This document shows, piece by piece, positions 27,686 to 64,000 of a stretch of DNA of 64,000 nucleotides. Source of the DNA: Psammoneis japonica (Eukaryota); contig QPGO01000075.1 in the NCBI GenBank assembly GCA_008632985.1, forward strand, positions 2,517-66,516. Reading direction: 5' to 3'. Below the pieces are notes generated by a model. That model worked only from the letters and a program-made list of their open reading frames with translations. It ran no database searches and had not been told where the DNA came from. Position 1 is the first letter of the stretch, and every line of letters starts with the position of its first letter. A program made the position numbers and the translations under genes.

Positions 27686-28526
27686 GGGTGGTCGGTTGCC
27701 ACTTTTTTTAGCTCGAATTCGGCCGAACAGCTCGTGTTTTGCATGATTTTTCCTGGATTTCACCGTGCTTCACCGTGGTGAAAACAACAAGCCATAAGTC
27801 TGTGATGGAGGTGGTCCGTCTGCCAACTCTCATTTATTTTATGTTTGTTGTGTGTCAAAGATTGCACGCACATGAAAAGTTGGTGGACGGCAAACTGCGT
27901 TTTTGAGAAATGTCGATGATTGTCATTGTCGTCGTGCTTCGATCGCAGTGCTGATGGTTCTCGTTTTCGTGCGCGATCGGGTGTGACTGTGAACAATTCT
28001 TGCATTCAAAAATGAACACTGTAAAAAACCTGCGGCATTCTCAAGGGGGGTCATCCCCGCGTTTGTCCCAAAATTGCCGTTGCATTTGAATGAGGTTTTT
28101 TGCAGTGTTCATTTTTGAATGCAAGAATTGTTCACAGTCACACCCGATCGCGCACGAAAACGAGAACCATCAGCACTGCGATCGAAGCACGACGACAATG
28201 ACAATCATCGACATTTCTCAAAAACGCAGTTTGCCGTCTACCAACTTTTCATGTGTGCACGCAATCTTTGACACACAACAAACACAAAATAAATGAGAGT
28301 TGGCAGATGGACCACCGATTGCCGTCTACCAACTTTTCATGTGTGTGCAATCTTTGACACGTGACAAACATGAAACAAATGAGAGTTGGCAGACGGACCA
28401 CCTCCGTCACAGACTTATGGCTTGTTGTTTTCACCACGGTGAAGCACGGTGAAATTCAGGAAAAATCATGCAAAACACGAGCCATTCGGCCGAATTCGAG
28501 CTAAAAAAAGTAGCAACCGACCACCC
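27686..28526. mobile_element. Foldback/MITE element nested in the Ginger-like element
   Basis: Inverted arms 27686-28031 and 28093-28526 (the right arm has an internal ~88-bp duplication) around a ~61-bp spacer. Ends GGGTGGTCGGTTGC; flanks TTAA (left) and TCAA (right). Confidence 0.85.
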
Positions 28527-46980: not shown

Positions 46981-48558
46981 TTGGTTGAATTCTCGTGCTG
47001 CGGAGCTCGCACGCAGAATTCTGCGGGCCCAATGTCACACGGAGTCCCACCTGGGACTGGAACCCGTCCATTTCAGTTGTCGTCACAGGGGCAAGAATCA
47101 TCTGCTGACAATGCGAAAGAAAATTGTTCTCTGGAGACTTCTGACTTGTTGCACGCCGCTGACGATTCGTTAAGATCAGGGGCAGCGTCACAAAACATTG
47201 AAAACAAAAGCACTGATGATGACGAGAAAGTCTCACGCAGCAGCCGAGAATGCGATCAAGAAGCATCGGGGAGCCGAGAGCAAGCACAAGCGCGACTCTT
47301 GTCGGATCATAATCCATTGACTGAGCTCAACAAGCACGTCACAAAGCCCCGACTCAACTCAAGACAGCATGCGTTAAATTTTACGAGCCAAAGTTGCTGT
47401 TCACAGGGTGGGCGACACAATGGTGGAGGAGCGCGTTCTCACTGCCCCAAAAGGCCATCCACCACCTTTCAACAACGAAGGGTGATGCAGAAGTCGAGTT
47501 TTCATTTCGTGAGAGAGGAGCGGTCGGATGCCAGTTGTGGATGGTCTGTCAACAAGATTCATGTGGGTTCTTTTACGAATCGCGTTAGTGACAAGGATCA
47601 CACCGCAGCAAGAGTGGCCCAGGGCGGAAGCAAAGGCAAAGCATCTGCTTTGGCTTTGACCAAAGATGCGAGCAGGTCTGAGAAACGACACCATCAGCTT
47701 TTTGCCAAGGACGAGAAGGAGCCTTTTGAGAATCCCAAGATGTCCACTGGTGGAAAGCGGAGTGCGCCCGCGTCATCAAGAAACCCTTCAGCAAGTGCCG
47801 CGTCCCGTTCGACCAAAGACACTGGCAGGTCCGAGAAACAACACCGTCAGCTTTTTGCCAAGGATGAGAAGGAGCCTTTTGAGAATCCCAAGATGTCTGC
47901 CAGTAAAAAGCGGAGTGCGAGCGCGTCATCAAGAAACCCTTCAGCGAGCGCCGCATCCCGTTCGACCAAAGATGCTGGCAGGTCCGAGAAACGACACCGT
48001 CAGGTTTTTGCCAAGGATGAGAAGGAGCCTTTTGAGAATCCCAAGATGTCTGCCAGCAGAAAGTGGAGTGCACCCGCGTCATCAAGAAACCCTCCAGCGA
48101 GTGCCGCATCCCGGTCAACCAAAGATACGAGCAGGTCCGAGAAACGACACCGTCAGCTTTTTGCTGAGGACGAGAAAGCACCCGAGATGACCAATGGAAA
48201 GCGGGGTGCTCCCGCGTCATCAAGAAACCCTCCAACGATGAGCGCCAGAAGAAACCATCCACCAATCGACGTTTTGGACAGCAGTGATGACGATCGCCTC
48301 CAACCAAAGCACAAAAGAAGACCTTTTGCCGATGCTGAAGATGAGGCCATTTTAGCTGGCGTCAAAGAATGCGGTGAGGGGAACTGGAAAGCCATGAGAG
48401 TGTGTGGCCATGCCGTCTTGCACTCGCGCAGCACGGTCAACATCAAGGATCGCCATCGTGTTCTGAAGAAATGCGGGAAAACTGAGGGAATGGAAAACTT
48501 CCCGGATGAATGTGCAGATGCAATTGCTGATGAGACGCATCATGGCAGCAGTGAGTGA
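46981..48558 (+). pseudogene. Element-borne ORF with 51-aa repeats and a C-terminal telobox/TRF-type Myb domain, TpA-mutated
   Basis: RRPFADAEDEAILAGVKECGEGNWKAM...SRSTVNIKDRHRVL matches a TRF Myb pattern (FT..ED..L..GV..YG.G.W..I...R....KDRYR) after T->A, Y->C, I->M and Y->H changes. Start uncertain. Confidence 0.7.
47659..48230 (+). repeat. 153-bp coding tandem repeat, ~3.5 copies
   Basis: ACCAAAGA.. units start at 47659, 47812, 47965 and 48118. Confidence 0.95.
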
Positions 48559-48966
48559 ATCAATTGATGATCCGATTGCGATCTTGGTGTGGTGGGTCCA
48601 AGAACTGAAGATTCAACACAACTCTTGCGTCGTCATTTTAGTTTCTCAGCAGGACCATGGACTAAAATAATTTCATCCTTCCTCATCTTGTGAACAGTTG
48701 CACTGGTGGCGACATTCTCATGTTGCAGCCATGCCGTTGCTTGTCGTGTGCGACATGGGCGGCGACACCATTTTCACGTTTCTCATGGTGTGGTTGGGGG
48801 ATTGAGAGCTCCTCATCATTGCAATGAAGCCGCCAAATTCAGAAACCAAACAGACGCACCGGCATTGTCCACAGTTCTTAGCTGCGACAGGCTCTGCGGC
48901 ACAACAGCAGAGGGCATGGCAGCCCTCTGCTCTTCTCTGCTCTCCAGCTCTATCTGCTCCACTCTT

Positions 48967-48969
<3 letters not shown>

Positions 48970-48999
<30 letters not shown>
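48970..48999. repeat. (CT)n microsatellite
   Basis: Uninterrupted TC run of about 14 units. Confidence 0.9.
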
Positions 49000-49001
<2 letters not shown>

Positions 49002-49039
49002 TCTAGAGAGGAAGCAACGGTGTATGTGCTCATTTCTAT

Positions 49040-49471
49040 TGCCCCATGCATGCGCCAGGTGCTGAAAAAGAAGATGTGTTACGACTTTGTCGTTGTGAAA
49101 ATTATGAGCTAGTTTAGAGTAGAGAAAATGGGATCGTGCGAATAGGGAATCTTGCCAAATCCCTATTCGTTCGCATTTGGATCGTATTAAATCGATCGTG
49201 CGTTCGCATTGTGGATCGTGCGAATCAAGCCATCACGCGCCATGCACGAGTGATGTCATCGTGTGGAATCACGCTGCCATCGTGGGCCAGACGACGGGCT
49301 AGTGTGCTTCACACGGATGCTCTCTTAGCATCCTTCTGGAATTGCCTAAGACCTAGAGCCACGCCCTCCTGTGGTCGTGCTTCCCAGGTGCGTGTTAACA
49401 ACACCACGTTGCCACGCACAAGAGGCTCATGCACGGTCTCACCGTGTTGTCCAGCAGCGAGGCATGCTGCA
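49040..49471 (-). repeat. 3' LTR
   Basis: Colinear ungapped match to 53907-54338; adjacent to the PPT. Confidence 0.92.
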
Positions 49472-52400
49472 CACTCCCCCATGATCAGGGCCGTCAAGTG
49501 ACAGAATGTCTTGCTGGTGATGGGGCACAATCTGCTGCAGATCACACGTGTCCATCAGCACTCCGTTCTGGACACGCAACGTGCCGTTGTCACACACACG
49601 GACAACTCTGGCGGGTCCTGCATGGCTGTCAGAACCGCACTCAGAGGATTGTTCCTGTTTGACAAGCACCAACTGCCCTGCGGTGTGTTGATGCTCCTTG
49701 CGTTTCTGATTTTCACGCTTGTTGTTTAAGTGGGCAAGCTTCTGCTTTCTGGTTTCCATGCACTTCCACTTGGCACGATGGGCAACAGACAAAACCGCAT
49801 CGCGTCCGAAGACCAATTGCACGGGACTTGCACGCGTGGTCGTGTGCACCGCAGCTCCAATGGCGAAGGCTGCTGCGGAGAGGATGCCACTCCATGGGTC
49901 ATCTTCGTCCAGTTCCATGTCCTGTGCTGAAAAGGAACGTGCCATGTTGCCAAGTGTCTGGTGCACACGTTCCACTGTGGCATTTGCCTGTGGATTCCGT
50001 TTGCTCATGGGTTTCTTCAAAATCCCACAGTCATTTTTAATCATCTGGCCAAATTCTGCCACAAATTTTGTCCCACGGTCACAAACCACCTGGGTTGGCC
50101 ACGGACATCTGCACAGCCACGTTTGTTCCACGATGTTTGCTGCGACGTCTGCGCGTTTCGTAGACACTTCTTTGATCTCGAACCACCTGGTTGCTGGGTC
50201 AATCATTGTGACTGCCCACAATTGCAAGGTGTCCTTTCCGCGTCTTTGAATTTTGTGTGGCCCCATCGTGCCCATGCATGGAGTTTCCCATGGAATTGTC
50301 TCTGTGACCTTTTCTGGTGGCTTCCCATGACGCTGCGTTTGGCGTTTTGTCTTCTGGCATCGATCGCACTTAACGCACGTAGAATGCACCGTAGACCTCA
50401 TGCCAGGCCAACAGAAGTGCTGGGCAACAGACATTTCCGCATGTGTCTCACCTGGATGACACAGTGTCTCGTGGTGCCATTCAGTTAGCGGAACCTGCAA
50501 TGACTGTGGTGCTGTGATTTTGTCCTTATGACAGATTGACTGTCGTGATGACCCTCCCCCACGACACGCGTGAATGGAGCAGTCGGACGAGTCCTTGGCT
50601 CTTGAGAGCAGGCGCTTGTCCTTTTGTTGTGCTTTTTGAATGCGCTTGAAGCTAATGGGCAGAGACAGCTCATCTTGAGCGTCTGCATTAAAGGCTTCAT
50701 GCAAAGGACGACTCGATGGAGTGTCTTTTACATCCGGATTGGCCTCGGAAGGCAAGCTGGGTGCTGGTCGAAGGCGACTAAGAGCGTCAGCGACTGGGTT
50801 GTGGGTGCCCTTAACACAGCGTAATTCGGGACCGCATTCTTCGCATGTCAACTGCCAGCGCATGACGCGCTCGGCATTGAACACTTTGTGCGCAAGATTT
50901 TTATGATCGGCACATGTGATCACACGATGACCAAGGAGAATCGTTCGAAATTCTTTCAACGTCTCCACAATGGCGAGCAATTCTCTCTCCGTTGTTGCAT
51001 GATTTAATTGCGCACTGTCAAGCTTTCTGCTGTAAAAGGCGACAGGTTTATCATCTTGGGACACAACTGCTCCCAATTGACATTTAGAGGCATCGGCGTG
51101 CATCTCAAAGGGTTTGTTGAAATCAGGATGTGACAGTGAAACATCATCCGACATCACCCGTTTGACGGTTTCGAACGCCTCGTCTTCAACGGACGTCCAT
51201 TCCCACTTGACAGTCTCGCTTGCGAGTCGTGTTAGCAGAGCCAAGACTTCAGAACGTCCAATCCACGTGTCGCGGCAGCAGTTCACCATGCCAACAAATG
51301 AACGCAGGTCGCGTTTGTTGGTTGGGGTCGCGATTCGCTCAATGGCGTCGACTTTGTTGGGTGTTGGTCGTGCTCCGTCTCTGTCAACCAGACAACCCAA
51401 GTGTTCTAATTGGGTTTGACAGAAGTGAGATTTAGTTGTGTTGACTTTTAGTCCTGCTTTCTGGACCCTCAACAAAACTTCTTCAAGTTTGTTGAGGTGA
51501 TCTTCACAGGTGCCTTTCGTCACGACGAGAAGGTCATCTAAGTGCGTTCGAACGAACGACAGATCTTCAAATGAGCCTGACATGCGTTCTTGGAAAATGT
51601 CTGGCGAACCACACAATCCCATGGGCAATGCCTGCATCTCACACTTGCCCCACGGGAAGATGAGCGTGCAGAGCTTCTTGCCATCAGCATCCAATCAGAT
51701 GTGACAACAGCCCATGTTTAAATCCAGCGATGTAGCCCACATAAAGCCTTCGAGCTCAAGTGGCACATCTTGGACATGAGGAATCGGGTGAGGCAATCGC
51801 TCAATCCGTTTGTTCAGCTCTCTGAAATCATTGATGAAGCGCACCGTTAAATCTTTCTTCGGCATGACAAATGATGGAGCTGCCCATTGGGATCGGCTGA
51901 CGCGTTTGAGAACACCGATGCGCACTGGGCGCTCTACTTCCTCACGCAGCGTAGCTTCGTGTGCACGAGGTGCTTTACACGGACGAGCGTGGTGTGGTTC
52001 TGCACCCTCCTTGAGTTGGACATGGCAGGGTTCTCCCTTCCATTCTCCCAATGTCCCATCAAATGAGGACTCATGGCGTTTCAACAGTGCCAAAAGGTCG
52101 TTTTGTTGAACCACAGAAAGTCCCATTGCCCCTCGCGTCATGTCCTCGAGGCAGGCCGGCGCGCACTTGGCGTCTGAAATGCGCGAAATCCGGTCGGTTT
52201 CCGAAGATGAGGCTTCTGGATCTTGAAGATAGAAGGAGGTTTCCACCGCAGCATCTGCGTGCCTCATTGGCACTTCTCCATTGACCAATGGCCACTCTGT
52301 CATCTGTTTAGAGAAGACAACGTCAATGCCTTGTGTCTCCAGAATGTCACGTCCAACAATCATGTCGCACTTGCCCAACTTTCCGTTGTGTGCGTGGACG

Positions 52401-52720
52401 GCATGCTTGGGTTCTGCAGTTTCGGATAATTCTGGCAACCGAAATTTAACGGTGCAGTCGTCAGACGTGCCAAACGAGCCTGCTGCCGTGGTCCAGTTTG
52501 TCTCAGCCATTGAATGGCTTCGCAGACGTTCACAGCATCGACTGTCGAGCAGAGCACTGCCAGCGCCACCATCTGGTGGTGCCTCAATGGTTTGAGTCTT
52601 GCCCTTGCCATGTTTGGCATTCACAGCCACAAACAAGATTGGAGTGAGATGAGTCTTTTTAACTCGTTTGCGGGATTGGCCTACAACACGTGTACGATGG
52701 CAATTCAGTTGTTCATTCAC
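49439..52720 (-). pseudogene. pol: pol (protease, reverse transcriptase, RNase H, integrase) with an in-frame TGA at 51695-51697
   Basis: SQWAAPSF, RFINDFRELN, LPMGL, HLDD (for YLDD), DAS..LGAV, ERELLA, VADALSR, DRG..F and VERVH. The two ORFs are in the same frame, separated by one TGA (probably from CGA). Confidence 0.93.
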
Positions 52721-52768
52721 ACATTCATCTGATGTGTTAAAACTGCCTGTGTTGTGTCGGCCCCCTTC

Positions 52769-53812
52769 TCAGGCGTCCGAATCTTCGGAATCACTTAAGT
52801 TGAGGTCACGGAAGTGATTGAGCTCCTCCTCGCGGGCCTTGCGCTTTTTCTGAGCGTTGGCAAAACACTCCTCGACCTTCGATCCGATGAGAGCATCAAT
52901 GTCTTCCTCATTCCGAGGTTTTGCATTGGGCTTGCCGCCTCCGTCATTGGAATGTCCAGTCTTGACACGTTTCACGTGGTGCTCAAGCTGACGGCAATCT
53001 TCCGCATCATGTCCACAGTCAGTCCCGTGTGGCATGCACGACTTCTGGGTGTTCCGCTGGGTCGTGATCAACGACTCAGGATTGTCCATTCTACGTCCCT
53101 GCTTACGTGGAACCTCAGCATGTTGGTCCTGGTTACCTTCGGCAAGCTCGACCTGCTCGATGCGCTCGCAGAACTGTACAAATTCGGCGATGGCATGCGC
53201 CAACGGGTCAAAATTCTGTAGCGTCATGAACTTCTGCCATGCGTTCGGCACACCGCACTCGAACATGTCGCACAGTTCGTCATCAGGTGATGGTGCCGGT
53301 GTTTCTCCATCCTCCATCACGGGTGGAAACTGAGAGATGCAGCCGTTAATTTCAACAGCCCTCGCGACGCAGTCACGAGTAGAAACCTCTGCGGGCTTGC
53401 GCATGAAGCGCCGCAGATGACGCTTCTGCAGCAGCACCGCCCCATTTGGGAAGATGCTTTCCTTTAGCTTCGCGACGCATGCTGCGCACGCAGCGTTGGT
53501 TTGGGACGCCTGCTTGTCAGCGGCATCATCAAATGACGTCAGAGCATCGCCCTGTAGTGAGTCACGCATGAGGGCAAATTTCGCTGGCCCGGTCGTGATG
53601 TTTTGTCCTTCGTGCACGCGATCCACGTTGCGTGGAAAGATTGGGAGTGTCTCGCATGTAGCCGCAGAAAGGTGCGGGATGCCCATCTCTTGCGTTGGAC
53701 TGTCCGGATCAGTGGGGTTGTTACACAGCTTGTATGTCTGGTGCTCGCCCTGCTGCAGCTCTTTCTTCTCTGGCCATGCGAACAGAATCGGCGGCTCAAT
53801 CCGCTTCTTCAT
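52769..53812 (-). pseudogene. gag: gag-like ORF
   Basis: ORF between the 5' LTR and pol, with QKRHLRRFMRKP and a CxxHG..GH....C knuckle-like motif. Confidence 0.75.
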
Positions 53813-53906
53813 GGTCGTTTTGAGATTTGTCGGTCCCACCAACATTTCGTAGTTTCGTTTCTGTAGATTTCATTGCCTTGCACAACATGCGGGAGTGATG
53901 TCACTG

Positions 53907-54338
53907 TGCCCCATGCATGTGCCAGGCGCTGAAAAAGAAGATGTGTTGCGACTTTGTCGTTGTGAAAATTGTGAGCTGGTTTAGAGTAGAGAAAATGGGA
54001 TCGTGCGAATGGGGAATCTTGCCAAATCCCTGTTCGTTCGCATTTGGATCGCATTAAATCGATCGTGCGTTCGCATTGTGGATCGTGCGAATCAAGCCAT
54101 CACGCGCCATGCACGAGTGATGTCATCGTGTGGAATCACGCCACCATCGTGGGCCAGACGATGGGCTAGTGTGCTTCACACGGATGCTCTCTTGGCATCC
54201 TTCTGGAATTGCCTGAGACCTGGAGCCATGCCCTCCTGTGGTCGTGCTTCCCAGGTGCGTGTTAACAACTCTGCGTTGCCACGCACAAGAGGCTCATGCA
54301 CGGTCTCGCCGTGTTGTCCAGTGGCGAGGCATGCTGCA
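53907..54338 (-). repeat. 5' LTR
   Basis: Match to 49040-49471. Confidence 0.92.
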
Positions 54339-54619
54339 CTGTTCTCTGATTGAAATGCCAGCACACAACATTCGTGCCGGGCCAACACATCCAAAAAAAT
54401 CCACCCTCGGTTCTACCCTGTAGAGAGCAGCACTCATCCTGTGGGGAAGAAGACCAACCCGTGGCCATCAGTGGAGAAGCTACGTGCTAGCAATCAACCT
54501 GCGCAAACCCCACACGAGGAGTTGAACCCGAAAAAAAACTCCAAGACGAAGCGAGCGACGCTCAAAAAACACCGCGCCGTCACCTTGACCATGGCCTTTG
54601 AATGCCCGTAGTTCTGCTC

Positions 54620-55350
54620 GGCACCCATTGCAGCAAAGGTGTGAATGCCAACATTGACTGATGAGACTGTGAAAAAAATGATGCTTGCTTTGGATTTTTT
54701 GCTTGCCCTTGCCTTTTGGGTGTTTGATGACTTTTGCTGCAAGAGAGGAAACACGCGGCGCCACCGCGTCGGTGACAGCAGCGTTGACATTTCTGCTCGG
54801 TGATTTGAGGACAAAGGTGAGAATGCCAATGCTTGCCAAACTTAGCTGTAAAAATCGCATGGTTGTGTTTGCACTCATTGCAAAGCCCGCATTTTGGGCG
54901 TTTGATGCTTTTTTCTGAGGCACAGCTTTTCTCTCACTTTTTCCATTGTTTTGTGGTCGCTCACAGGTCTGCCCGGCACCCATTGCAGCAACGGCATGAA
55001 CACCGCTACGGATTAACATGACTGTGGAAAAAAATGATGCTTGCAGTGGATTTGTTGCTGCTCCTCACCTCTTGGGTGTTTCGCGACTTTTGCTCCCAGA
55101 GAGGACACTGACAGGACTGCCGCGTCTGACACAGTGGCATTCACAATCAAGCTCAGCTTCGGACTGCAAAGGTGAGAACAACAAAATTTGCTAACAATGA
55201 TGTCGAACATGTGATGGAAATGTTTGTTTGTTGCACACATCTCATGTTTTGTGCGTTTGATGATTGTCAAGTGTGGCGCAGTTTTTTCCTCACAGTTTCT
55301 CCTGTCTCGCCGTCGCTGACAGGCCCACTCGGCACCCATTGCAGCATGGG
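54620..55350. repeat. Diverged ~355-bp tandem repeat (2 units plus the start of a third)
   Basis: GGCACCCATTGCAGCA at 54620, 54975 and 55331; ACTGTG(G)AAAAAAATGATGCTTGC near 54666 and 55021. Confidence 0.8.
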
Positions 55351-56310
55351 CGCCAAGGTGAATACGGACCAAATAGTTATAAAAAAATGCACCTCAAGCC
55401 AAGGATGCGGAACAATCTGTTTAAAGATCAACGGCAGCAACCCTTGGTCGTGCCTTCCGCGCTGGGGAGCAGCTTGTTTTCTTCTCAAGCTGGTGGAAGT
55501 GCAATGAGGTGCTGATTGTTCCTTGGGCTAATGCAATTGTTTAGTAACATTTAAATATAAAATTCACAACAGTGATCTCAAACAGGTGCTTTGGAGCTTG
55601 TCAAAGTTGAAAGCAGTGCAAGTCGTTCGTCTGCTTTCCCACAGGGAGTGTGAAGGTTTCTGCTGCACTCAGGACGCCTGTGAGTGCTGCTTGCCATGCC
55701 ACCATAGATGCAGTTGGCATTGGTGCAGTTGCCGGGGTTGCATGCGGCAACGCTCATGGTTGAGATGCCGCATTGAGACGAGTAGAACTTTCGAGTATTT
55801 TTTTTGTTCCTCCCGTCGCACTCGACATCACGCACCAAGGACAGACTGTTTAGATCGCGCGAAAGGGGCGCGCAGGGTAGAATTTTTGGCTCCGAAAATT
55901 CTACTGTGCCTTCTACCTGAGTGGAATAAACAGTGGATGTACGGTAGATCTTTTTAGAAGATACTAACACCGTATTGTCATTTTTACATACGAGAATTCC
56001 ACTTTCCAGTAGAAAAATACTCCTTGGGTAGAATTTTGGGTGTAACGGTACGGTACTCTACACTATCTACTATCCGCGAGTCGTACCCGCGACCAAAGCA
56101 AATCTTCGAAGTTCACGCAGTTCAACAATGAAAAACGTGTACGGTAAATCAGGGAGCGGGTGTTCGATGATGTTCGATTGCGAAGATGCAGAGATAGAAC
56201 AACCGCGGACGTTGCTTTTCCCATTAGACCTTTGATAAAGCTTCTCTTGGAGCGAATCCAAGAGCTAACCTTTAGCAGTAGCAGAGCTGTTCGGAGTTGG
56301 AAAAGTAACG

Positions 56311-57426
56311 ATGAAGCTTCTTCAAAGTTTTCGTCTGTTCTGTTTTTCCATGCTGCTTCTCTTTTCAAGCATGACGGCAATTGCAACCAACAACAACTGC
56401 AGTCCAGAAGAAGGAACATGTCCAGTGTACGATGTTCTTGGTGAACCATCTGAGTTCACAGAATCTACCACCGGAGTCAAGTTGGCGGTTCGTCGATGGG
56501 TCCCGGAGGACATTAAAAGCGCCATCTTGTTTGTACATGGTGGAGCTGGATGGCACACTGGATATTCAGAGATCATGGGTAGATCTATGCAAAAGGCTGG
56601 TATCGCCGTTGTCGCGTTTGATAGCATAGGTAGCGGATACAGTGAGGGCATGAATGGCGGTTTGCGAAATTATTTCGATTCAATCGACACTCTCGTCAAT
56701 GATGTCACAATGATGATGGACAAGGTGCGATCCGAGTACCCAAACAAGAAAGTTTTCTTGATGGGGGAAAGCTTTGGATGCTTTGTGCTTATATCGCAGA
56801 TATTAAAGGAGCAAAAGAGTCCGGACGGAAGTCTGGCGGATGGCTACATTTTTACGGGCCCCGTGGTCAAGATATTACGTAAGTCCGTCTTTGAAAATGC
56901 ATCGTTTGCAAACCTCATAGAGCCGCCATGGCCCGCTCACTCTAACATTGCTACTTATCATCTTTACTGTAAAGCCGAGATGCTACCACCCAGACCCGTC
57001 ATTGCGGTTCTAAGGTTTCTGGCACGCTTTTTCCCAATGCTCACCACACCCGGTACTGACTTTTTCAGTACGTTCGACCTGGCTTTTGGGGACAAGGGCT
57101 GGGCCCAAACAGGACGGAACGATCCAATGATTCAGGAAGCAGCTATTGCTCCACCCAAAGTGGGGATGGCCGCGTCTGTCCTTACATATATGAACAACAA
57201 TTATGACTCGTTGCAAGAGGTTAACGTTCCTTTCAAAATATTCATGGGAGAGAACGAGCTCCGCGTGGATGTAGAAGCTGTGAAACACTTTGCGAGAGTG
57301 GCTTCGTCCACTGATAAGGAAATTGAGATTATCGAGGGTGGTTATCACCAGCTTTTCCAAGATGTCCCTGAAGTTACTCAACAAGTGTGTCAGAAAACGC
57401 AGCAGTGGACATTGGCTCGTTCCTGA
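56311..57426 (+). CDS. Alpha/beta hydrolase, monoacylglycerol lipase/lysophospholipase-like, with a signal peptide-like N-terminus
   Basis: LFVHGG, DSIGSGYSEG, GESFG nucleophile elbow and GGYHQLF. In-frame intron at 56879-56974. Confidence 0.88.
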   Translation: MKLLQSFRLFCFSMLLLFSSMTAIATNNNCSPEEGTCPVYDVLGEPSEFTESTTGVKLAVRRWVPEDIKSAILFVHGGAGWHTGYSEIMGRSMQKAGIAVVAFDSIGSGYSEGMNGGLRNYFDSIDTLVNDVTMMMDKVRSEYPNKKVFLMGESFGCFVLISQILKEQKSPDGSLADGYIFTGPVVKILRKSVFENASFANLIEPPWPAHSNIATYHLYCKAEMLPPRPVIAVLRFLARFFPMLTTPGTDFFSTFDLAFGDKGWAQTGRNDPMIQEAAIAPPKVGMAASVLTYMNNNYDSLQEVNVPFKIFMGENELRVDVEAVKHFARVASSTDKEIEIIEGGYHQLFQDVPEVTQQVCQKTQQWTLARS

Positions 57427-59488
57427 CGAAAGAATAGAGAAGTAGACGCGTTTATGGGATGTCAGCTAGAGGGCATTATAGTGGACTTATTCTTATTGCT
57501 TTATCTGTCTTTAGCTCCCATGTAGGGTCCATCTCAGCATGTCTCTAGAGAGCCGCAAGAGAGCAGGAAAATTAGAAGAATCAGTGGGATGTCAACATGA
57601 CTCAGACACAATTGAGCATGACCAACATTGTTTTGATGAACCGAGGCAAGGTTCAACATTTAGACAAAGCATTGTCTCCCTCTCCCACACAATCATTTAA
57701 TTTTTTTGACATGATGCTGAAGATCCAGTGCATCACCCATGATGTCTCAAACCCTCACAAACTGTTTTGCACCTCTTTGCATCTGATGCAAAAGTCCTGC
57801 AACTTGATCATTGCCGCACGATGGCAGGAAAGCACAATCATTTGATTCCCACAGCTGCAAAAGATGCACAGGTTCAATGGATGCTGTGATGATGCATGTG
57901 ATTGTTTGTGGTGCTGGGATTGCTGGTTTTTTAATTGCCCAATTTGCACCACTGCCCAGACCTTTGGTGTGGAGTCATGGTGCTGGAACAATGCAACAAC
58001 AACAAGACCAGCATGGAGAAAGGTTTGCAAGGCACAGACAGCCCACCACAATCCAAAGTCAACCACAGCTCTTTTTGGGGTGCTGGTCCATGGTGGGTCA
58101 GCTTCTTGATTGGCAATGACCACATGCACATTGAAATGGCTTGGAAAACATGGCAAAACACAGATGCAGTGTTGTCCAGCACAAAGATTTGGTGTGGGTG
58201 TGGTCAGAGAAGTCTGCATTTTGGGGTGGCTTCCTTTTGGTTTTGGGTTGGAACTTTGTGCTGGTGTTTGTCAAACATTTTCTGCATTGGCACCACATTG
58301 TGGGCAAGGGCTCCATCAAGGAATTGCAGTTCTTGCAGCGGGTGGGGTGCACAGTTGAGAAAAATGGGGGTGCCGCAAGTTGGACTTCCAAAACAAGGTC
58401 ATTGGGAATGGCTGCACAGGAATTTTTGCTGGCAAGAATGAGAGTGCTGCCTTGCACACAGACACACAATTCTGGGGCACTTGCTTCTTGCGGATCAAAA
58501 GAGTCTCCAATTCGGGTGCTGATCTAAAGTGACTGCTGTTGAAAAAATGAAAATGGCATGTCGCGCATGTCTGTGTGCTGCAAGATGGCATGAGAGGGAG
58601 TGCTTGCTGCAGGGCCAAAATGTTTGGCTCTAGCCAGCAAAACAGTCCAGAGCTCAGCAGCAGCTGAGCCTGCTGCAATCCAGGCCACCAGATGTGAGCC
58701 AAGAATGAGTGCTTTGCCTGCCCTGCATGTTGGCTGCTGGAAGCACCACAAAGCACAAAGATGGTTAAATCTGCCACTGCACCACTTGGCCTTGTTGGGG
58801 CACCAGCCAACTTTCATGTGGGTTTCCTGCCAATCATGAGCCAAACACACACCAAAGAACAATGAGAACCTTGCCCAGCTGTCTGCTTGGGCATTTGGGC
58901 AAGAGATTGCACAGGAGAAGAAATGAGAAGGAACTTAAAATTTCTTTTGTGGTCAGGGCACAGTGGTGCACATTTTTCAAACCTGGCCAACTTGCAATTT
59001 TGCCACAGACTGGCGATGGCCTGCATCCAACAGCTGGGCTTTCCACCAGTTCTTGATGAGGTGAAGTGCCATGATGAGCCAATCAGAGCCCACTCCTGCA
59101 ATTTGCAACACTCTGCTCATGAGGCAGCATTGCCCCCGGTCCATCCTGCCATCAAATGGCATGACAAAAAAAAACAGAGCTGTTTTTAAGTGCCATCACT
59201 CCTTTGCCAGCTGGGCTGGTGCCGGCTGACCCACACTCCCAGTGCACAGTTAAGTGTGGCAGAAGCTTGCGCTGGATCAGCCGGGGTGGGCATCACCAGA
59301 AGATGACACCCCACCAAGATGACTGAAAAGGAATGATTCACACGAGGGATTTGTTGCACGCTTGTTGATGACAGCCACAAAAGGCACACCACAACTGCAA
59401 CGGACAATTGCACTCAGATGGGTTTTTAAAACAGTCCACAAAAGGAGCCTTGAAGGTGAGACGAGCAGGTCATTAGAGAAAATGTTCT

Positions 59489-59960
59489 TGACACGTAGAA
59501 ACAACACTGAGTCTTGCGTGGAAAAGCCGATGAGAGCAGCAAACCAAAGACCATCAAATGGCATCACAGGACAACTTGCATTCTTGCTGAAAAGGGCTGC
59601 AAAAGAAGCAGCACATTCACCACAAAGAGCGAAGCACTTGATTGCACGGTGGAGAAAAGAAGAGAGGTTGAAGACCGATTGGCAAGGACAAAAGCAGTCC
59701 AGAGAAGTGACACACAGACAGTCAGAGGTGACACGTAGAAACAACACCAGATCTTGCATGGAAAGACCAACGGGAGTGGCAAATTAACAACAATCAAATG
59801 ACTCCAAAGGACAACCAATGTTCTTGCTGAAAAGGGCCGCAACAGAAGTGGTGCTTGCACCATAAAGAGTGAAGGACTTGATTGCATGGCAAGGAAAAGA
59901 AGCAGCATTGAGGACCAATTCGCAAGGACAAAAGCAGGCCAGAGAAGTGACATGCAGCAG
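59489..59960. repeat. 240-bp tandem duplication
   Basis: TGACACGTAGAAACAACAC at 59489 and 59729, with shared TTCTTGCTGAAAAGGGC and GCAAGGACAAAAGCAG blocks. Confidence 0.85.
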
Positions 59961-60411
59961 ATCGTCCGGCATCTGCAGATCCGCGTAGAATTTGCACTAG
60001 AACCTGTGTAGAAAATTTTCTGAGACAACAGAAAATTTCAAGAAATGACAACCAGCACACGAACCAAAAGGCCGGGACACTCGTCGTTTTTCCACTGATG
60101 AACTTTGCTCATCATGCTGCAACAAGGATGTGCCATTGGTGAACATGGACAGAATGGGCTTGTTGGAGCCAAATCAACACCATCTGAGAAGGGTGACATC
60201 AGTGCAAGAAGGTGCATGGAAACCTGCGCAGAAGCTGAGGGTGTGCAGCTGATGTCGAAAAGTGTCAAATGGCATGACAGAGCATGATCACTTCCCCAGC
60301 AGAGAAAGTGCTGCCTTGGGCCCAATTGCTCAAGCAGCCAAAGACATGGCACAAGAACCTGGGGAGGGCACCTTGGCATTGGATCAGCAATCTGCCAGTC
60401 TGTTTGGCATC

Positions 60412-60709
60412 ACTTGTTGCAAGAGGTCAGCACTCCTCTCAGACATTTGTGGGAGAAAATGAGCTCCAAGTGGACGTGGAAGCTGCAGATTGCTTTGCGA
60501 GAGCAGCTTCATTTCTTGCTGTCAAGGAAGTTGGCATTGTCCAAGAGCAGGTGTCCCCAGCATTTCCAAGATGTCCCAAAGTTGTTCAACAAGCACGCCA
60601 AAGTGCACAGCAGCAGAGATGCTGGCTTGTTCCTGACAAGAGAACAGAGAAGCAGATGTGCTCTCATCCTCTGTCTCGGGGCATGTCTGGAGAGCCATGA
60701 GAGAGCAGG
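60412..60709 (+). pseudogene. Decayed duplicate of the lipase 3' end and 3' flank (57206-57567)
   Basis: Colinear similarity: TTGCAAGAGGT, GAGCTCC..GTGGA, CTTTGCGAGAG, TTTCCAAGATGTCCC and GTTCCTGAC; peptide FVGENELQVDVEA vs FMGENELRVDVEA. Confidence 0.88.
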
Positions 60710-62026
60710 GTTGTCACTCTGTTTCTGGCAGAGAGTCGCCAAGTGAGATGAGTCAGAAAGACCAACCTGAGCTGTTGTGAATGTCAGCCAAGAATCCCAA
60801 GAGCTGTGGATGGCTGCTGAGATGTGAGAAGGTGTTCTCTGTGTGAAGCACATGTCTTCAAGAGAACCTCTGGCACAACATGGAATTTAAAGTGCATGCA
60901 CAAACTCTGAATTGCACCAACATGTCTTGAAAAGCTCAAGGGCACAAGCCACCTCCTGCAGTGCCATGAGGAACAGGTTGTTTGACATGATTTTTTGTTC
61001 TTGGAGGAGGGCATTTGCTGATTCTGCCAACACATTTGCAACAATGGAGATGGCAGCAAAAGACACACTTGGACATTGTAGAGGAGTGCTCCCAAAGCAA
61101 GAAACAGCACAGGGGACCCTGCATGAGATCCAAAAGCCACCTGCCACTGGCTTAAAAAAAAAACAGTGGATGCACAACATCACAAAAGGACCACAAGATC
61201 AAGCAACAAGCCCTGTGAAAGTGATGCCAGCTCAGGCAGGCATGCTCCCCCCCACCTCATTCATGACAACATCTTGCTGCCAGCAGGAGGAGGGAACTGC
61301 ACACCCATCTTTGATGGCAGCGCTGGACAGAAGCTGTCCAAGCAATGGCTTTGTCCATGTCAGCTGCACACCTCCTGCCTGGAATGCACATGCTGCAAAG
61401 TTCCAAGGCTGATTTGGTGATTTCCTTTGTTGCACAGCATTTCAGAGAGATGCAAAGCTTTTGTGCTGTGTCAGCCATGACTTGGGGTGGTGCAAAACCT
61501 CCCTCTCCATGAGCCAAGAAGAGAAGAAATCTGCCCCACTGAAAGATGCCCCAACAACAACACAAACAGCAAAGTCTGTTGCTTCCATGCTTGATTTGCT
61601 GCAGAGCTGCAGAGCTGCAAAAAAGTCAATCTCTTGTTGGAGAGAGCAACTTTTGGTTTTCTCATTGCAGCCAGCAAGTCCAAAACCCACACAACATTGG
61701 AGATTGCACTGCATTGCTGCAGACACATCCCAGCAGTCAGCACCTTTTGACAAGGGCAAGAGCAGCATGATCTTGTTTTGAAACAAGTTCAATGAGCACA
61801 GAATGAGCTGATCCATCATGATTGTCTGCCGCAATGCGGTGCACTGTGGTCAGGGAAAAAGATTGCTGAGGATCATGGCAACAAGACATTCTTGCACAAA
61901 CAATTGAGGTGTGGCCTTGTCTCCACAGCTTGCCCAAGCACAACAGCCCAAAGTCAGAAGTGCAGCAAGCCCCCCTTGACCTGATGTGTTGTCAACAAAG
62001 AAAGAGCATTGTTGAGCTGGGAGGGA

Positions 62027-63010
62027 TGTCAAGGCTCCTGCCACAACAGCCACAACCAAGTGTGGAATGCATCTTAATGCCTGCTTTTAAAGAAGCTTGC
62101 AGGTCCAGGGTGTGCACAATTCAGAGGAGCAGCACACATTGTGAAAGCTGTGCTTGCCTCTCTAAATTCTGTCAGAAGCTGGACATTGTGGGGTGGCAGG
62201 TCAGCACATGCACAGACAACTCTTCTTCACTGCACACTCTTGCAACTCTGCTGGCAGCAGCATGGCATTCAAAGGGATGAGGTCAAGATGAGAATTTTGG
62301 CAACTGACATCTCTGGGACTGGCCCATTGTGAACAAGCCATTGCCAGCTGGAAATGTCACAGGGCCCACCAGCACCCTGTTGGCAAGGAGCAAAAAAGGA
62401 GCATGAGATGTTTTTCAAAGCAACTGCTGCATGTCTTTTGCAGAGCAGTGCTGTTTCAACAAGTTGCTTTTAGAGCAAAGAGCATTGCTGACCACCCTCT
62501 GGCTCAGAATTCTTGCTTGTTGTGCATGAGAGCTGTCAAGGCTGCCACAGCAGTCACAACCAAGTGTGGAGTGCATTTTGATGCCAGCTTTTAAAGCAGC
62601 AGTTTGCAAGCCCAGGATGCACACAATTCAGAATGGCGCACTTTGTGAGAGCTGTGCTTGCCTTTCTGGGTTCTGCCAGAAAAGTCAGGCATGGGTCAGT
62701 GGGGTGTCAACACATGTGCACACTTGTCTTGCAGCTCCACTGATGACATTCAAAGGGATGATGTCAAGATGAGAATTTTGGCAAATGACATTTCTGAGAC
62801 TGGCGGCCCTTTGTGGATGAGCCATTGCCAGCTGGAAATGTCACATGGCCCACCGCAGCACCCTGTTTGCAAAGAGCAAGAAAGGGTCATGAGATGTTTT
62901 TTCAAGGCAACCACTGAACATCTTTTGTGGAGCAACGTTGTTGTTCAACAAGTTGTTCTCAGAACAAAGAGTGTTGCTGACCACCCTCTGGCTCAGAATT
63001 TTTTTCATTT
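62027..63010. repeat. ~500-bp diverged tandem duplication
   Basis: CACAACCAAGTGTGGA at 62051 and 62555; GTCAAGATGAGAATTTTGGCAA and GCTGACCACCCTCTGGCTCAGAATT each present twice. Confidence 0.88.
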
Positions 63011-64000
63011 GTGTGTGTGTGTGTGTGCATGGGCAAGTGCCAGATGGGCAAGTGCTGCTCACATCATCTGGGGGTGTCTCTCTTTTTGTGGGACCTTCTT
63101 GTTCACCAGGTTGTCTGCGCAAGAGTGGCAACGACAATCAACTCAGTGCAAAAAACCACCCTTCATGTGAACACCACACACAGCAGCACTGCCACACTCA
63201 ACAACCAACAACTTGCTCACATTGTTGCACATCTCTTGTTCCTCACTCCATGCTGGTCAGCGCCACCACAGGAAGAGCTGCTGGTGTTTGGACACAGTGT
63301 TGTCTCACTCTGAATTCAACAACTGCAATTTTTTTTGCAAGTGCAGCAGCAGATTTTGGAGTGCAGGTGTTTAGAAGATTGAAGTGCATCAACTGTTTGA
63401 TGTCTTTTCACATCCAATGCACATCATGTCCCACAGCTTGTTCATTGCTGCAATGTGAGTGTGCAAAAAAGTGCACCAGTGGCTTTTTTCTCTCTCAGCT
63501 GCACAAAAAATGTGCACACTCTTGTCAACTGGATGCTGGCAACACATGATTTTGTTTGTGGCATTGCTGGGGTTGCTCTTGGTGCTGCAATCACTGAAAC
63601 TTGTGCTGCTCTGGCCCCACAGTTTCAAGCTGGTGTGTGGGGATCTCTGGGGCAACAAAAGCTCTGCCAAGCAACAACAGCACATGGAGAAAGACATGCA
63701 AAGTGCAGGGGCTGGCCTGCTGCAACAGATTGGCTTGATTGGCAGCACCCACAAGTGAGCCAAAACAGCCAGAAAAGCATGGCACAGCAGCATTGCACAA
63801 CTCAAGAAGGATTTGATGATGGACATGGTGGCAGGAAAAGTGTGCACGATGTTTGCCCCACTTCCTTTTAGCTTGTTGTTTCTTGCACATTGTCACGCGA
63901 TCTCTTTTTTTGTTGCAGCATGTTTTCTTCACAAGTGTTGAAGAAACTGGGACACAAGCAAGGCTGTCAATTGGGCTGTTGGAAGGGATGCATGCACGTG

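What the first reader, a model, noticed from the sequence alone, without database searches (positions are those of the whole stretch)
57206..60709. Duplicated host-gene fragment is mutated while the source gene 3 kb away is spared
Seen: 60412-60709 copies the lipase 3' end. TA sites of the intact gene read TG/CA in the copy: GGTTAAC->GGTCAGC, GTAGAAG->GTGGAAG, ATTATC->ATTGTC, GTTACTC->GTTGTTC, GAATAGAG->GAACAGAG, AAGTAGA->AAGCAGA, TCTAGAG->TCTGGAG. CG sites often read TG/CA as well. The functional copy gives the polarity. Inference: unlike RIP, which hits both partners, targeting follows chromatin domain rather than homology, though purifying selection on the gene is an alternative explanation.
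Basis: partly seen in the sequence, partly recalled or inferred. Interest (0 to 1): 0.8.

Follow-up and report, generated by a model that had tools for sequence, protein, structure and literature searches.

The report
TA-erasing mutation domains in a diatom
A stray copy of the tail of a lipase-like gene has lost every TA (to TG or CA) because it lies in one of several sharply bounded, transposon-rich stretches of this diatom genome where TA is erased, while the working gene 3 kb away keeps its TAs even in its intron and untranslated tail.

Summary
Window 60412-60709 is a real, single, 5'-truncated copy of 57206-57567, the last 221 nt of coding sequence plus about 141 nt of 3'UTR of an alpha/beta-hydrolase gene. 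All 11 aligned TA sites of the gene read CA (6) or TG (5) in the copy. 13 of 14 CG sites are changed, 12 of them to TG or CA.

This is one case of a window-wide pattern. About 54% of the 64 kb lies in five sharply bounded domains with TA observed/expected of 0.0-0.3 and excess TG/CA.

The direction of change (TA to TG/CA) and its occurrence after insertion are shown independently:
- The two LTRs of one retrotransposon differ mainly at TA versus TG/CA.
- 18 of 19 conserved tyrosine (TAY) codons of its pol gene now read Cys or His.

The source gene is spared at neutral sites: TA o/e is 0.93 in the intron and 1.10 in the 3'UTR. The border lies within 10 nt of the end of the duplicated segment, so purifying selection does not explain the asymmetry.

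The same TpA-to-TpG/CpA signature was reported in 2026 for integrated viruses in the chlorarachniophyte Bigelowiella natans. Eight literature searches found no report for diatoms.

"Chromatin domain" targeting is inferred, not shown. The enzyme is unknown.

The parts
56311..57426 (+). Intact alpha/beta-hydrolase (PF12146 Hydrolase_4, monoacylglycerol-lipase-like) gene. Exon 1 is 56311-56878, the intron 56879-56974 (96 nt, GT..AG, in frame, no stop) and exon 2 56975-57426. The product is 339 aa.
   Evidence: Pfam E = 3e-34. Diatom homologues are 49-62% identical. A contig of run X2 joins 56878 to 56975. The spliced product fits the homologues across the junction. TA o/e is 0.54-0.55 in the exons and 0.93 in the intron.
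57206..57567 (+). Source segment of the duplication: the last 221 nt of CDS plus about 141 nt of 3'UTR. It holds 19 TA (o/e 0.72).
57427..57575 (+). TA-rich 3'UTR-like tail of the gene (13 TA in 149 nt, o/e 1.10). The last dense TA is at 57573, and this marks the border of the protected island.
57576..64000 (.). Domain depleted of TA and CG, running off the window end. TA o/e is 0.03-0.17, CG 0.05-0.38 and TG/CA 1.6-2.2. It is mostly single copy in run X1; about 58600-60400 has raised summed depth.
   Evidence: no Pfam family in its 24 ORFs of 120 aa or more
60412..60709 (+). Mutated, 5'-truncated copy of the gene's 3' end. It has 0 TA and 4 CG, four 1-3-nt indels and two larger deletions (33 and 35 nt) relative to the gene's 3'UTR, and is single copy (summed depth about 60).
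59489..59957 (.). Two tandem units of about 240 nt (77% identical) inside the raised-depth stretch that ends just left of the copy.
49040..54338 (-). Complete Ty3/gypsy-type LTR retrotransposon. The LTRs are 49040-49471 and 53907-54338 (TG..CA). The flanks are CTAT and CTGT. Open pol-like frames lie at 49439-53869. It gives the rate and polarity of the TA process.
   Evidence: Pfam RVT_1, RT_RNaseH_2, Integrase_H2C2 and rve; LTR alignment; Tyr test; summed depth 12,000-31,000 against about 60
46600..55700 (.). Younger depleted domain: the LTR element plus tandem repeats. TA o/e is 0.12-0.44 while CG is still 0.72-1.0.
21500..28450 (.). Depleted domain with a 1378-aa open frame (weak integrase match) and Tyr at 0.4%.
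14300..18200 (.). Depleted domain. TA o/e is 0.00-0.12. CG o/e is 0.14-0.22 in its first 2 kb.
1..8450 (.). Depleted domain running off the window start. TA o/e is 0.07-0.19 over its first 8 kb.

Best explanation
What it is. The window comes from a diatom, judged by the named homologues of the hydrolase. Its DNA alternates between gene islands and transposon-derived domains.

Two context-specific, transition-only mutation processes act inside those domains:
- A fast process turns TpA into TpG or CpA, most readily at T-A-pyrimidine.
- A process roughly ten times slower turns CpG into TpG or CpA. This is the usual footprint of 5-methylcytosine deamination.

TG and CA are the end states of both processes, so old domains hold almost no TA or CG, and TG and CA even swap with each other through short-lived TA or CG intermediates.

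The 298-nt segment. It is an old, single, 5'-truncated copy of the 3' end of the neighbouring hydrolase gene that landed inside such a domain. It was carried to the same end state as a passive victim. The source gene, with its intron, UTR and upstream spacer, lies in a protected island whose border is within 10 nt of the end of the duplicated segment.

Shown: the copy, the polarity, the domain structure, action after insertion, the relative speed, and the sparing of neutral sites in the gene.

Inferred: the TA process is enzymatic editing of silenced DNA. The most likely form is adenine deamination at TpA (A to inosine, read as G), as proposed for the same signature in Bigelowiella natans. It would be recruited by position, for example methylated or heterochromatic transposon domains that may spread in cis, rather than by the sequence of the target.
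For: 1. Copy and site fates. See the observation check.

2. Domains.
- 1-kb and 250-nt maps show TA o/e of 0.00-0.2 in 1-8450, 14300-18200, 21500-28450 and 57576-64000, and 0.12-0.44 in 46600-55700. Genes have 0.38-0.72.
- TA density is 7.8 per kb in 34,824 nt of depleted DNA against 40.9 per kb in 27,924 nt of genic DNA.
- Borders are sharp on the 250-nt map.

3. Action after insertion and speed.
- The two 433-nt LTR stretches differ in 21 columns.
- 9 of these are TA in the left LTR against TG (8) or CA (1) in the right. 6 more form three TG/CA double differences, best read as an ancestral TA hit in both LTRs.
- 4 are CG against TG, 1 is CA against CG and 1 is a transversion.
- TA count is 14 in the left LTR and 5 in the right.
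- My rough estimate from these counts: TA decays about 100 times faster per base than other sites and about 10 times faster than CG.
- The flanks of the element read CTAT and CTGT.

4. Polarity from outgroups.
- At the 19 columns where at least 80% of 50 homologous pol proteins have Tyr, the window copy has Cys 8, His 10 and Tyr 1.
- Other conserved residues are kept: Phe 16 of 17, Trp 14 of 15, Cys 7 of 7, His 7 of 7.
- The 120 homologues have 2.9-4.7% Tyr. The window ORF has 1 Tyr in 752 residues.

5. Other copies keep TA.
- Of the 40 best-supported differences between the window and the contigs of runs X1-X3 (183 more were not shown), 24 are window TG/CA against TA elsewhere and 7 are window TG/CA against CG.
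- 2 are window TA against TG/CA, in a single-copy contig at the border near 46500.

6. The gene is spared at neutral sites.

7. Sequence context.
- TA density in depleted DNA relative to genic DNA ranges from 0.64 (TTAA) to 0.01 (ATAT).
- For trinucleotides the order is TAT 0.05 < TAC 0.09 < TAG 0.16 < TAA 0.30.

8. Precedent (abstract, Results and Discussion read). In B. natans mutation-accumulation lines, 230 of 231 new mutations in two integrated viral regions were A-to-G or T-to-C, all at TpA, at about 1000 times the background rate.
Against: - No methylation, histone or small-RNA data exist for this window, so 'silenced chromatin' is an inference.
- TA is its own reverse complement. A-to-G by adenine deamination therefore cannot be told from T-to-C by a modified or damaged thymine on the other strand.
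- Only one host-gene fragment with its source could be found in the window, so the natural experiment has n = 1.
- The copy is old (10 transversions in 292 columns, against 1 in 433 for the LTR pair). It shows the end state, not the rate.
- Three TG/CA double differences fall on in-frame GTG valine codons of the gene. These could mean synonymous GTA-to-GTG changes in the gene itself. A fourth, at a TGG Trp codon, must have arisen in the copy. Some slow TA loss in the gene is therefore not excluded.
- One of the seven coding TA sites (57330) may be a gain in the gene rather than a loss in the copy.
- Run X1 may be the sample the window was assembled from, so its agreement is not independent.
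- The summed depths are not copy numbers.
- The whole genome was not available.
Confidence: 0.78

Rival explanations
1. The process hits gene and copy alike, and purifying selection alone keeps TA in the working gene.
For: The coding part of the source segment is under constraint: the gene matches the homologues where the copy does not. Three GTG (gene) against GCA (copy) differences could be synonymous GTA-to-GTG changes in the gene.
Against: The intron (o/e 0.93), the 3'UTR-like tail (o/e 1.10, 13 TA in 149 nt) and the upstream spacer (o/e 0.86) are not depleted. The density falls to 4 TA per kb within 10 nt of the end of the duplicated segment. Whole gene islands, spacers included, keep normal TA.
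Confidence: 0.03
2. The process is triggered by repeats or homology, like RIP with the opposite chemistry. It recognises multi-copy transposons and spreads a short way in cis. The gene escaped only because the shared 362 nt is too short or diverged too fast.
For: The younger depleted domain coincides with DNA of high summed depth: LTR element 12,000-31,000, 54400-56200 about 1000, 59200-60400 about 2200, against 60 for single copy. The copy starts within about 10 nt of the end of the raised-depth stretch.
Against: Long stretches that are single copy today are as depleted as the repeats: 47200-49000, 57576-58600 and 60400-64000, all at depth about 60. The gene's duplicated segment shows no loss. 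Both could be explained by age or by a length threshold, so this rival concerns how a domain is founded and overlaps with the best explanation.
Confidence: 0.25
3. The changes were made in RNA by ADAR-like A-to-I editing of double-stranded transcripts and were fixed by reverse transcription. On this view the fragment is a retrocopy of an edited mRNA.
For: The fragment is 5'-truncated and ends in the 3'UTR. A 17-19-nt imperfect direct repeat flanks it (3,000 control flank pairs, 4% scoring as high). ADARs favour a U before the edited A, as the preprint's Discussion notes.
Against: Both strands are hit: 5 TG and 6 CA in the copy. The two LTRs of one element, identical at insertion, have diverged at TA in place. 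The flanking target-site copy also differs TA against TG. Non-transposon, single-copy flanks are equally depleted. There is no poly(A) at the 3' end of the copy.
Confidence: 0.02
4. This is not an enzyme aimed at foreign DNA. It is damage at TpA (for example UV thymine-adenine photoproducts, or a modified thymine such as hydroxymethyluracil misread as C) that is repaired well in open or transcribed chromatin and poorly in compact domains.
For: The domain-wise pattern and the sparing of gene islands would also follow from differential repair. The TA palindrome leaves the chemistry open. That hydroxymethyluracil in dinoflagellates favours TpA is my recollection, not a result of any call.
Against: The contrast is extreme (about 100-fold per base by my estimate). 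Borders are sharp at the scale of 10-250 nt. The two LTRs of one element differ (14 against 5 TA), with 8 of 9 changes on one strand, which looks episodic rather than steady. In B. natans only some lines mutated. Untranscribed spacers inside gene islands are spared.
Confidence: 0.12
5. The polarity is reversed, or the pattern is an artefact: the gene gained TA (RIP-like CA/TG to TA), or TA-free DNA is a sequencing or assembly error.
For: One coding site (57330) fits a gain in the gene.
Against: The homologues support the gene's state at the polarisable sites. 18 of 19 conserved Tyr codons are lost in the transposon. Contigs of run X1 match the window with 0 differences over 56027-59243 and 60183-64000, though X1 may be the source sample. 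The copy also carries transversions and indels, as real old DNA does.
Confidence: 0.01

Closest known systems
TpA hypermutation of integrated viral DNA in the chlorarachniophyte Bigelowiella natans (Mettrop et al., bioRxiv 10.64898/2026.01.13.699255; abstract, Results and Discussion read; supplements closed)
   Same: Transitions only, at TpA, giving TpG or CpA according to strand. Confined to discrete regions of foreign origin, with rates orders of magnitude above background. Long-term footprint of low TpA with high CpA+TpG in clusters enriched for reverse-transcriptase and transposase domains. Patchy activity.
   Different: - A different lineage: a diatom (stramenopile) instead of a rhizarian.
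- Far more pervasive and further advanced here. 22 of 64 1-kb windows pass that paper's cut-offs, against 124 clusters in a genome with an 85 Mb callable part. TA o/e falls to 0.00-0.1, against 0.45 for their giant-virus region.
- The targets here are LTR retrotransposons, decayed single-copy DNA and a host-gene fragment. No viral genes were seen.
- A flanking-base preference (T-A-pyrimidine) and coupled CpG decay are seen here and are not described in the sections I read.
- New mutations were measured there; only footprints are available here.
Repeat-induced point mutation (RIP) of ascomycete fungi
   Same: A genome-defence-like, transition-only, dinucleotide-specific mutation of transposons that leaves sharply bounded compositional domains and kills coding capacity.
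   Different: The chemistry and direction are opposite. RIP turns CpA/TpG into TpA and enriches TA; here TpA is turned into CpA/TpG and erased. RIP mutates both members of a duplicated pair; here the gene partner is untouched. GC content does not fall here (48.6% in depleted DNA against 47.6% in genic DNA), so a GC profile does not show the domains.
CpG decay by deamination of 5-methylcytosine in methylated transposons
   Same: CG to TG/CA in the same domains: 12 of 14 in the copy (a 13th reads AG), and CG o/e of 0.03-0.38 in the oldest domains.
   Different: It explains only the CG part. It is separable from TA loss: the younger domain 46600-55700 has TA o/e 0.12-0.44 with CG still 0.72-1.0. 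Methylation itself was not measured.
Deaminase editing of retroelements in animals (APOBEC3 C-to-U on cDNA; ADAR A-to-I on double-stranded RNA)
   Same: Hypermutation by base deamination as a way to disable mobile or viral sequences. ADARs favour U before the edited A.
   Different: Those act on replication intermediates or RNA and mark one strand. Here both strands of resident chromosomal DNA are changed in place, including DNA that is not a retroelement.
5'-truncated processed pseudogenes / gene fragments captured in transposon-rich DNA
   Same: A fragment limited to the 3' end of the transcript, single copy, dead on arrival, with a possible flanking direct repeat.
   Different: There is no poly(A) tail. 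The segment does not span the intron, so intron loss cannot be checked. The flanking repeat is only marginally better than chance.

Membership tests
B. natans-type TpA hypermutation of silenced foreign DNA | Changes are almost only A-to-G / T-to-C transitions falling on TpA | tested here: met
   11 of 11 TA sites in the gene fragment. 15 of 21 differing LTR columns are explained by TA to TG/CA. 18 of 19 conserved Tyr codons read Cys or His. 24 of the 40 listed contig differences fit.
B. natans-type TpA hypermutation of silenced foreign DNA | Confined to discrete regions while the rest of the genome has an ordinary spectrum | tested here: met
   Five domains with sharp borders. Genes have TA o/e 0.38-0.72 and TG/CA about 1.1-1.3.
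B. natans-type TpA hypermutation of silenced foreign DNA | Targets are of foreign origin (virus or transposon) | tested here: inconclusive
   One complete and one decayed integrase-bearing element are present. 83 of 84 ORFs of 120 aa or more in depleted DNA have no family match with a bearing on origin (4 chance-level hits, all below cut-off). One target is a host-gene fragment. No viral hallmark genes were seen.
B. natans-type TpA hypermutation of silenced foreign DNA | Rate far above background, measured as new mutations in culture | not testable with these tools
   Only an indirect estimate from the LTR pair (about 100-fold per base). Two TA against TG/CA differences were seen between the window and a single-copy contig.
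B. natans-type TpA hypermutation of silenced foreign DNA | Same enzyme or homologous machinery (ADAT2-like deaminase proposed) | not testable with these tools
   No genome is held. No deaminase family appears among the window's ORFs. The enzyme is not proven in B. natans either.
Fungal RIP | C-to-T at CpA/TpG producing TpA excess | tested here: not met
   The direction is opposite: TA is erased and TG/CA enriched.
Fungal RIP | Both copies of a duplicated sequence are mutated | tested here: not met
   The source segment keeps 19 TA in 362 nt; the copy has 0 in 298 nt.
5mC-driven CpG decay | CG to TG/CA with CG depletion in transposon domains | tested here: met
   12 of 14 CG sites in the copy read TG or CA. 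CG o/e is 0.03-0.38 in 57576-64000.
5mC-driven CpG decay | Cytosine methylation present in the domain | not testable with these tools
   No methylation data are available.
Processed (retroposed) pseudogene | Poly(A) tail and target-site duplication at the ends; introns absent | tested here: inconclusive
   No poly(A). The flanking 17-19-nt direct repeat was matched or beaten by 4% of 3,000 control pairs. The segment lies downstream of the only intron.

The most novel reading that the evidence does not exclude
Diatoms have a position-directed DNA editor that erases TpA (preferring T-A-pyrimidine) from transposon domains. It acts on anything that lies inside the domain, host sequence included, and stops within about 10 nt of a neighbouring gene. 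If it is homologous to the B. natans system, TpA editing would be an old genome defence shared by Stramenopiles and Rhizaria, working alongside cytosine methylation. It would also remove tyrosine codons and two of the three stop codons from its targets.
Probability: 0.5. Interest if true: 0.8.

Novelty: new member of a known kind. Interest (0 to 1): 0.66.

Why it matters
1. It would extend a mutational defence known from one 2026 preprint on one rhizarian alga to diatoms, a major and genetically tractable phytoplankton group. Here it appears to shape about half of the sampled DNA.

2. The gene and fragment pair is a natural experiment on targeting. A host sequence is edited once it sits in the domain, while its identical source is not. 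This argues for position, not sequence, as the cue, and sets a resolution of about 10 nt for the border.

3. The LTR pair, the tyrosine-codon test and the flanking-base preference give simple computational assays that can be run on any genome.

4. There are practical consequences. The domains are invisible to GC-content scans. They also create very long false ORFs, up to 1378 aa here, because TAA and TAG vanish. This can inflate gene counts.

Tried and rejected
- Whole genome: none is held for this window, so no genome-wide survey of gene and pseudogene pairs and no search for deaminase genes.
- Earlier notes of this scan: five look-ups by place, sequence and words found nothing relevant.
- Expression: no RNA holder was listed. 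Run X2, recorded as 'DNA?', carries GT..AG joints and so behaves like transcript contigs. It has no cover over 58001-64000, which I do not use as evidence.
- Extension of homology beyond 57206-57567 / 60412-60709: none.
- Other parts of the gene elsewhere in the window, both strands: scores of 38 or less, against a null of 36.5.
- Other genic fragments in any depleted domain: none scoring 55 or more apart from this one.
- Other diatoms: five metagenome contigs bearing homologues of the hydrolase (L001-L005, up to 13 kb) show no depleted domain; one 500-nt bin reaches TA o/e 0.22, the rest 0.36 or more. They are gene-dense and say nothing about repeats.
- The 120 pol homologues all have normal Tyr. 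This shows the depletion is not a family trait. It does not show absence in other species.
- Weak Pfam hits in depleted ORFs (Bac_rhodopsin E = 9e-4, Aminotran_3 E = 3e-3, Myb, DUF4703) were not borne out for the two I checked against solved structures. I treat them as chance.
- Atlas search with the CPSF100 fragment gave no useful taxon.
- Strand-coordinated tracts are only hinted at: 8 TG against 1 CA in the right LTR, and TG-versus-CA heterogeneity of chi-square 185 on 126 df in depleted DNA against 146.5 on 136 df in genic DNA.
- Which flank matters: among 46 oriented events, the mixed classes split 15 with a pyrimidine after the changed A against 6 with a purine (my binomial p about 0.08, from the counts).
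- The nitroreductase gene next to a border has low TA (o/e 0.38) but normal TG/CA, so it is not a victim.
- Literature: eight searches found the B. natans preprint and nothing on diatoms. Subscription journals are not covered.

Full report
**The observation**

The region holds an alpha/beta-hydrolase gene (Pfam Hydrolase_4, E = 3e-34). Its best homologues, 49-62% identical, are named by their sources as diatom proteins: Cyclotella cryptica, Bacillariaceae sp., and MMETSP/EukProt entries beginning Staur- and Craspedosta-. I therefore treat the window as diatom DNA. The species itself is not in the protein collection.

A contig of run X2 joins 56878 to 56975 (96 nt, GT..AG). The spliced 339-aa product fits the homologues across the junction. 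The gene is thus 56311-56878 plus 56975-57426.

| Measure | Value |
|---|---|
| Alignment score | 291.5 |
| Maximum of 20 shuffles | 40.5 |
| Identical columns | 211 of 292 |
| Transitions | 71 |
| Transversions | 10 |

Site fates and composition:
- All 11 aligned TA sites of the gene read CA (6) or TG (5) in the copy.
- 13 of 14 CG sites are changed (TG 5, CA 7, AG 1).
- The copy has 0 TA in 298 nt, against 19 in the 362-nt source segment.
- Fisher tests against other A/T bases and other G/C bases give p = 1e-7 and 2e-10.

The homology covers about 141 nt of 3'UTR. No other piece of the gene lies in the window. No contig of 90% or more likeness raises the summed depth over the gene above about 60. 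The copy therefore comes from this gene and not from an old paralogue.

Where gene and copy differ in protein, the gene agrees with the 13 homologues, for example the Tyr of GGYH (TAT to TGT). One site (57330) is ambiguous.

**The setting**

The copy is not special. Dinucleotide maps show five domains with TA o/e of 0.00-0.44 and TG/CA of 1.2-2.2:

| Domain | TA o/e |
|---|---|
| 1-8450 | 0.07-0.19 (first 8 kb) |
| 14300-18200 | 0.00-0.12 |
| 21500-28450 | 0.01-0.22 |
| 46600-55700 | 0.12-0.44 |
| 57576-64000 | 0.03-0.17 |

- Together they cover 34.8 kb of the 64 kb window.
- They alternate with gene islands in which ORFs have TA o/e 0.38-0.72.
- TA density is 7.8 per kb in depleted DNA against 40.9 per kb in genic DNA.
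- Borders are sharp. The 3'UTR-like tail 57427-57575 has 13 TA; the next 1000 nt have 4.
- GC content is nearly equal in the two compartments (48.6% against 47.6%), so the GC profile is flat.
- CG depletion is separable from TA depletion. The domain 46600-55700 has low TA but CG o/e 0.72-1.0, whereas 14300-16000 and 57576-64000 have lost both.

**Independent evidence on polarity, timing and speed**

A complete Ty3/gypsy-type element lies at 49040-54338 on the minus strand. It has RT, RNase H and integrase domains, TG..CA LTRs, a purine tract beside the 3' LTR, and flanks CTAT and CTGT.

LTRs are identical at insertion. Here they differ in 21 of 433 columns:

| Type of difference | Columns |
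|---|---|
| TA in left LTR vs TG (8) or CA (1) in right LTR | 9 |
| TG/CA double differences (three sites) | 6 |
| CG vs TG | 4 |
| CA vs CG | 1 |
| Transversion | 1 |

- At this low divergence, the three double differences are best read as one ancestral TA hit in both LTRs on opposite strands.
- TA counts are 14 (left) and 5 (right).
- My rough estimate from these counts: TA is lost about 100 times faster per base than other sites and about 10 times faster than CG.

At the 19 alignment columns where at least 80% of 50 homologous pol proteins have tyrosine, the window copy has Cys 8, His 10 and Tyr 1. Conserved Phe, Trp, Cys, His, Asp and Glu are kept. All 120 homologues have 2.9-4.7% Tyr, so the depletion is not a trait of the element family.

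Laying contigs of runs X1-X3 on 46001-64000 gave 223 differing places. For X1 these were C>T 66, G>A 70, A>G 34, T>C 35 and 11 transversions. Contexts could be checked for the 40 that were listed:

| Window state vs contigs | Count of 40 |
|---|---|
| Window TG/CA, TA elsewhere | 24 |
| Window TG/CA, CG elsewhere | 7 |
| Window TA, TG/CA in a single-copy contig (46354, 46546) | 2 |
| Other differences | 7 |

The two window-TA sites lie at the border of a depleted domain. The run may be the assembly's own sample, and summed depths are not copy numbers.

**What the copy adds**

- It is old: 10 transversions in 292 columns, against 1 in 433 for the LTRs. It therefore shows the end state, not the rate.
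- 11 of 35 aligned TG or CA sites have flipped to the other.
  - In a regime where TA and CG are both short-lived, an ordinary transition from TG to TA or CG is followed half the time by a move to CA. Flips are therefore expected.
  - One flip, at a TGG Trp codon, must have happened in the copy.
  - Three flips lie on in-frame GTG codons and could instead reflect synonymous GTA-to-GTG change in the gene.
- The gene's neutral parts are not depleted: intron o/e 0.93, UTR 1.10, upstream spacer 0.86. This removes purifying selection as the explanation of the asymmetry.
- The duplicated segment ends at 57567 and the border lies at 57573-57575.
- The copy itself is single copy (summed depth about 60). 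It starts within about 10 nt of a stretch with about 37-fold summed depth.
- A 17-19-nt imperfect direct repeat flanks the copy. 4% of 3,000 control pairs did as well. There is no poly(A) tail. How the fragment arrived stays open.

**Sequence preference**

- The ratio of TA density in depleted DNA to that in genic DNA depends strongly on the flanks. It is 0.64 for TTAA and 0.55 for CTAA/TTAG. It falls to 0.03 for ATAC/GTAT and 0.01 for ATAT.
- For trinucleotides the order is TAT 0.05 < TAC 0.09 < TAG 0.16 < TAA 0.30. TGC/GCA, GTG/CAC and TGT/ACA are the most enriched.
- Among 46 oriented events, the informative mixed classes split 15 to 6 in favour of a pyrimidine after the changed A (my binomial p about 0.08, from the counts).
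- I read this as a preference for T-A-pyrimidine, tentatively.
- Strand-coordinated tracts are only hinted at.

**Mechanism**

Shown:
- A TA-specific, transition-only process acts on both strands.
- It acts on resident chromosomal DNA after insertion.
- It is restricted to domains that also show CpG decay.
- It acts on a host-derived sequence once that sequence lies inside a domain.

Inferred: this is enzymatic editing recruited by position, most simply adenine deamination at TpA. Because TA is its own complement, thymine modification or damage on the other strand gives the same footprint.

Rejected:
- RNA editing followed by reverse transcription, because of the LTR pair and the use of both strands.
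- Reversed polarity, because of the outgroup comparisons.
- A sequencing or assembly artefact, because the copy carries transversions and indels as real old DNA does, and the run contigs agree with the window.

Still open: repeat recognition as the founding cue, with spreading in cis, is not excluded.

**Comparison with what is known**

The closest precedent is a 2026 preprint on Bigelowiella natans. I read the abstract, Results and Discussion and ran a term search in its text; I did not see the supplements. Its main points:
- 230 of 231 new mutations in two integrated viral regions were A-to-G or T-to-C, all at TpA, at about 1000 times background.
- Only some lines mutated.
- 124 TpA-poor clusters were enriched for transposon domains.
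- An ADAT2-like deaminase was proposed.

The present case shares that signature but lies in a diatom. It is much more advanced and pervasive: 22 of 64 1-kb windows pass that paper's cut-offs. It concerns retrotransposons and a host fragment rather than viral genes. That text mentions no diatom or stramenopile. Eight literature searches found no diatom report. The library lacks most subscription journals.

Fungal RIP is the mirror image: it makes TA and hits both partners. Both defining features were tested here and not met.

**Verdict**

Position-dependent targeting and the rejection of purifying selection as the explanation are supported. 'Chromatin' and 'not homology' are unproven.
- I file this as a new member of a recently described kind, with added value as a natural experiment on targeting.
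- Interest 0.66.

Noticed in passing
window 49040-54338 (-): A complete LTR retrotransposon whose frames stay open (751, 357 and 366 aa) although 18 of 19 conserved Tyr codons are destroyed. TA erasure removes TAA and TAG, so dead elements keep long ORFs. Its 4-nt flanks read CTAT and CTGT, so the target-site copy differs by a TA-to-TG change.
   Followed up: yes
window 49040-49471 vs 53907-54338: The two LTRs of one element are unequally hit (14 against 5 TA), and 8 of the 9 changes in the right LTR are on the same strand. This suggests patchy, possibly strand-processive episodes.
   Followed up: partly
window 46354 and 46546: The only two differences between the window and a single-copy contig of run X1 over 46001-46703 are TA in the window against TG/CA in the contig. 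Both lie right at the border of a depleted domain. They could be recent or allelic events.
   Followed up: partly
window 21603-25739 (+), 1482-3401 (+), 1-1413 (+): Very long open frames (1378, 639 and 470 aa) in TA-free DNA, with about 0.5% Tyr and raised Cys and His. Only a weak integrase match was found. Such frames could be mis-annotated as genes.
   Followed up: partly
window 56879-56974: The hydrolase intron (96 nt, GT..AG) is in frame and free of stops. The unspliced frame therefore reads through as a 371-aa protein, and ORF-based annotation would add 32 false residues.
   Followed up: yes
window 54610-55400: A tandem array of about 356-nt units. Related copies appear in run X2 as contigs with GT..AG joints that skip 150-151 nt. 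This looks like a repeated, spliced, transcribed unit of unknown nature inside a depleted domain.
   Followed up: no
window 46601-47200: Summed contig depth of about 137,000, against about 60 for single-copy DNA. This is a very abundant short repeat at the left edge of the depleted domain.
   Followed up: no
window 60393-60410 and 60711-60729: An imperfect 17-19-nt direct repeat lies immediately on both sides of the gene fragment. 4% of 3,000 control pairs scored as high. It may be a target-site duplication from the insertion of the fragment.
   Followed up: partly
window 57206-57567 vs 60412-60709: 11 of 35 aligned TG or CA dinucleotides have flipped to the other. This is the expected signature of long residence where both TA and CG are unstable intermediates.
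   Followed up: partly
window 36399-45171 (-): Three consecutive long frames (758, 334 and 1828 aa) with DUF3638/DUF3645 matches. They probably form one very large gene in the biggest gene island, and their TA content is normal.
   Followed up: no
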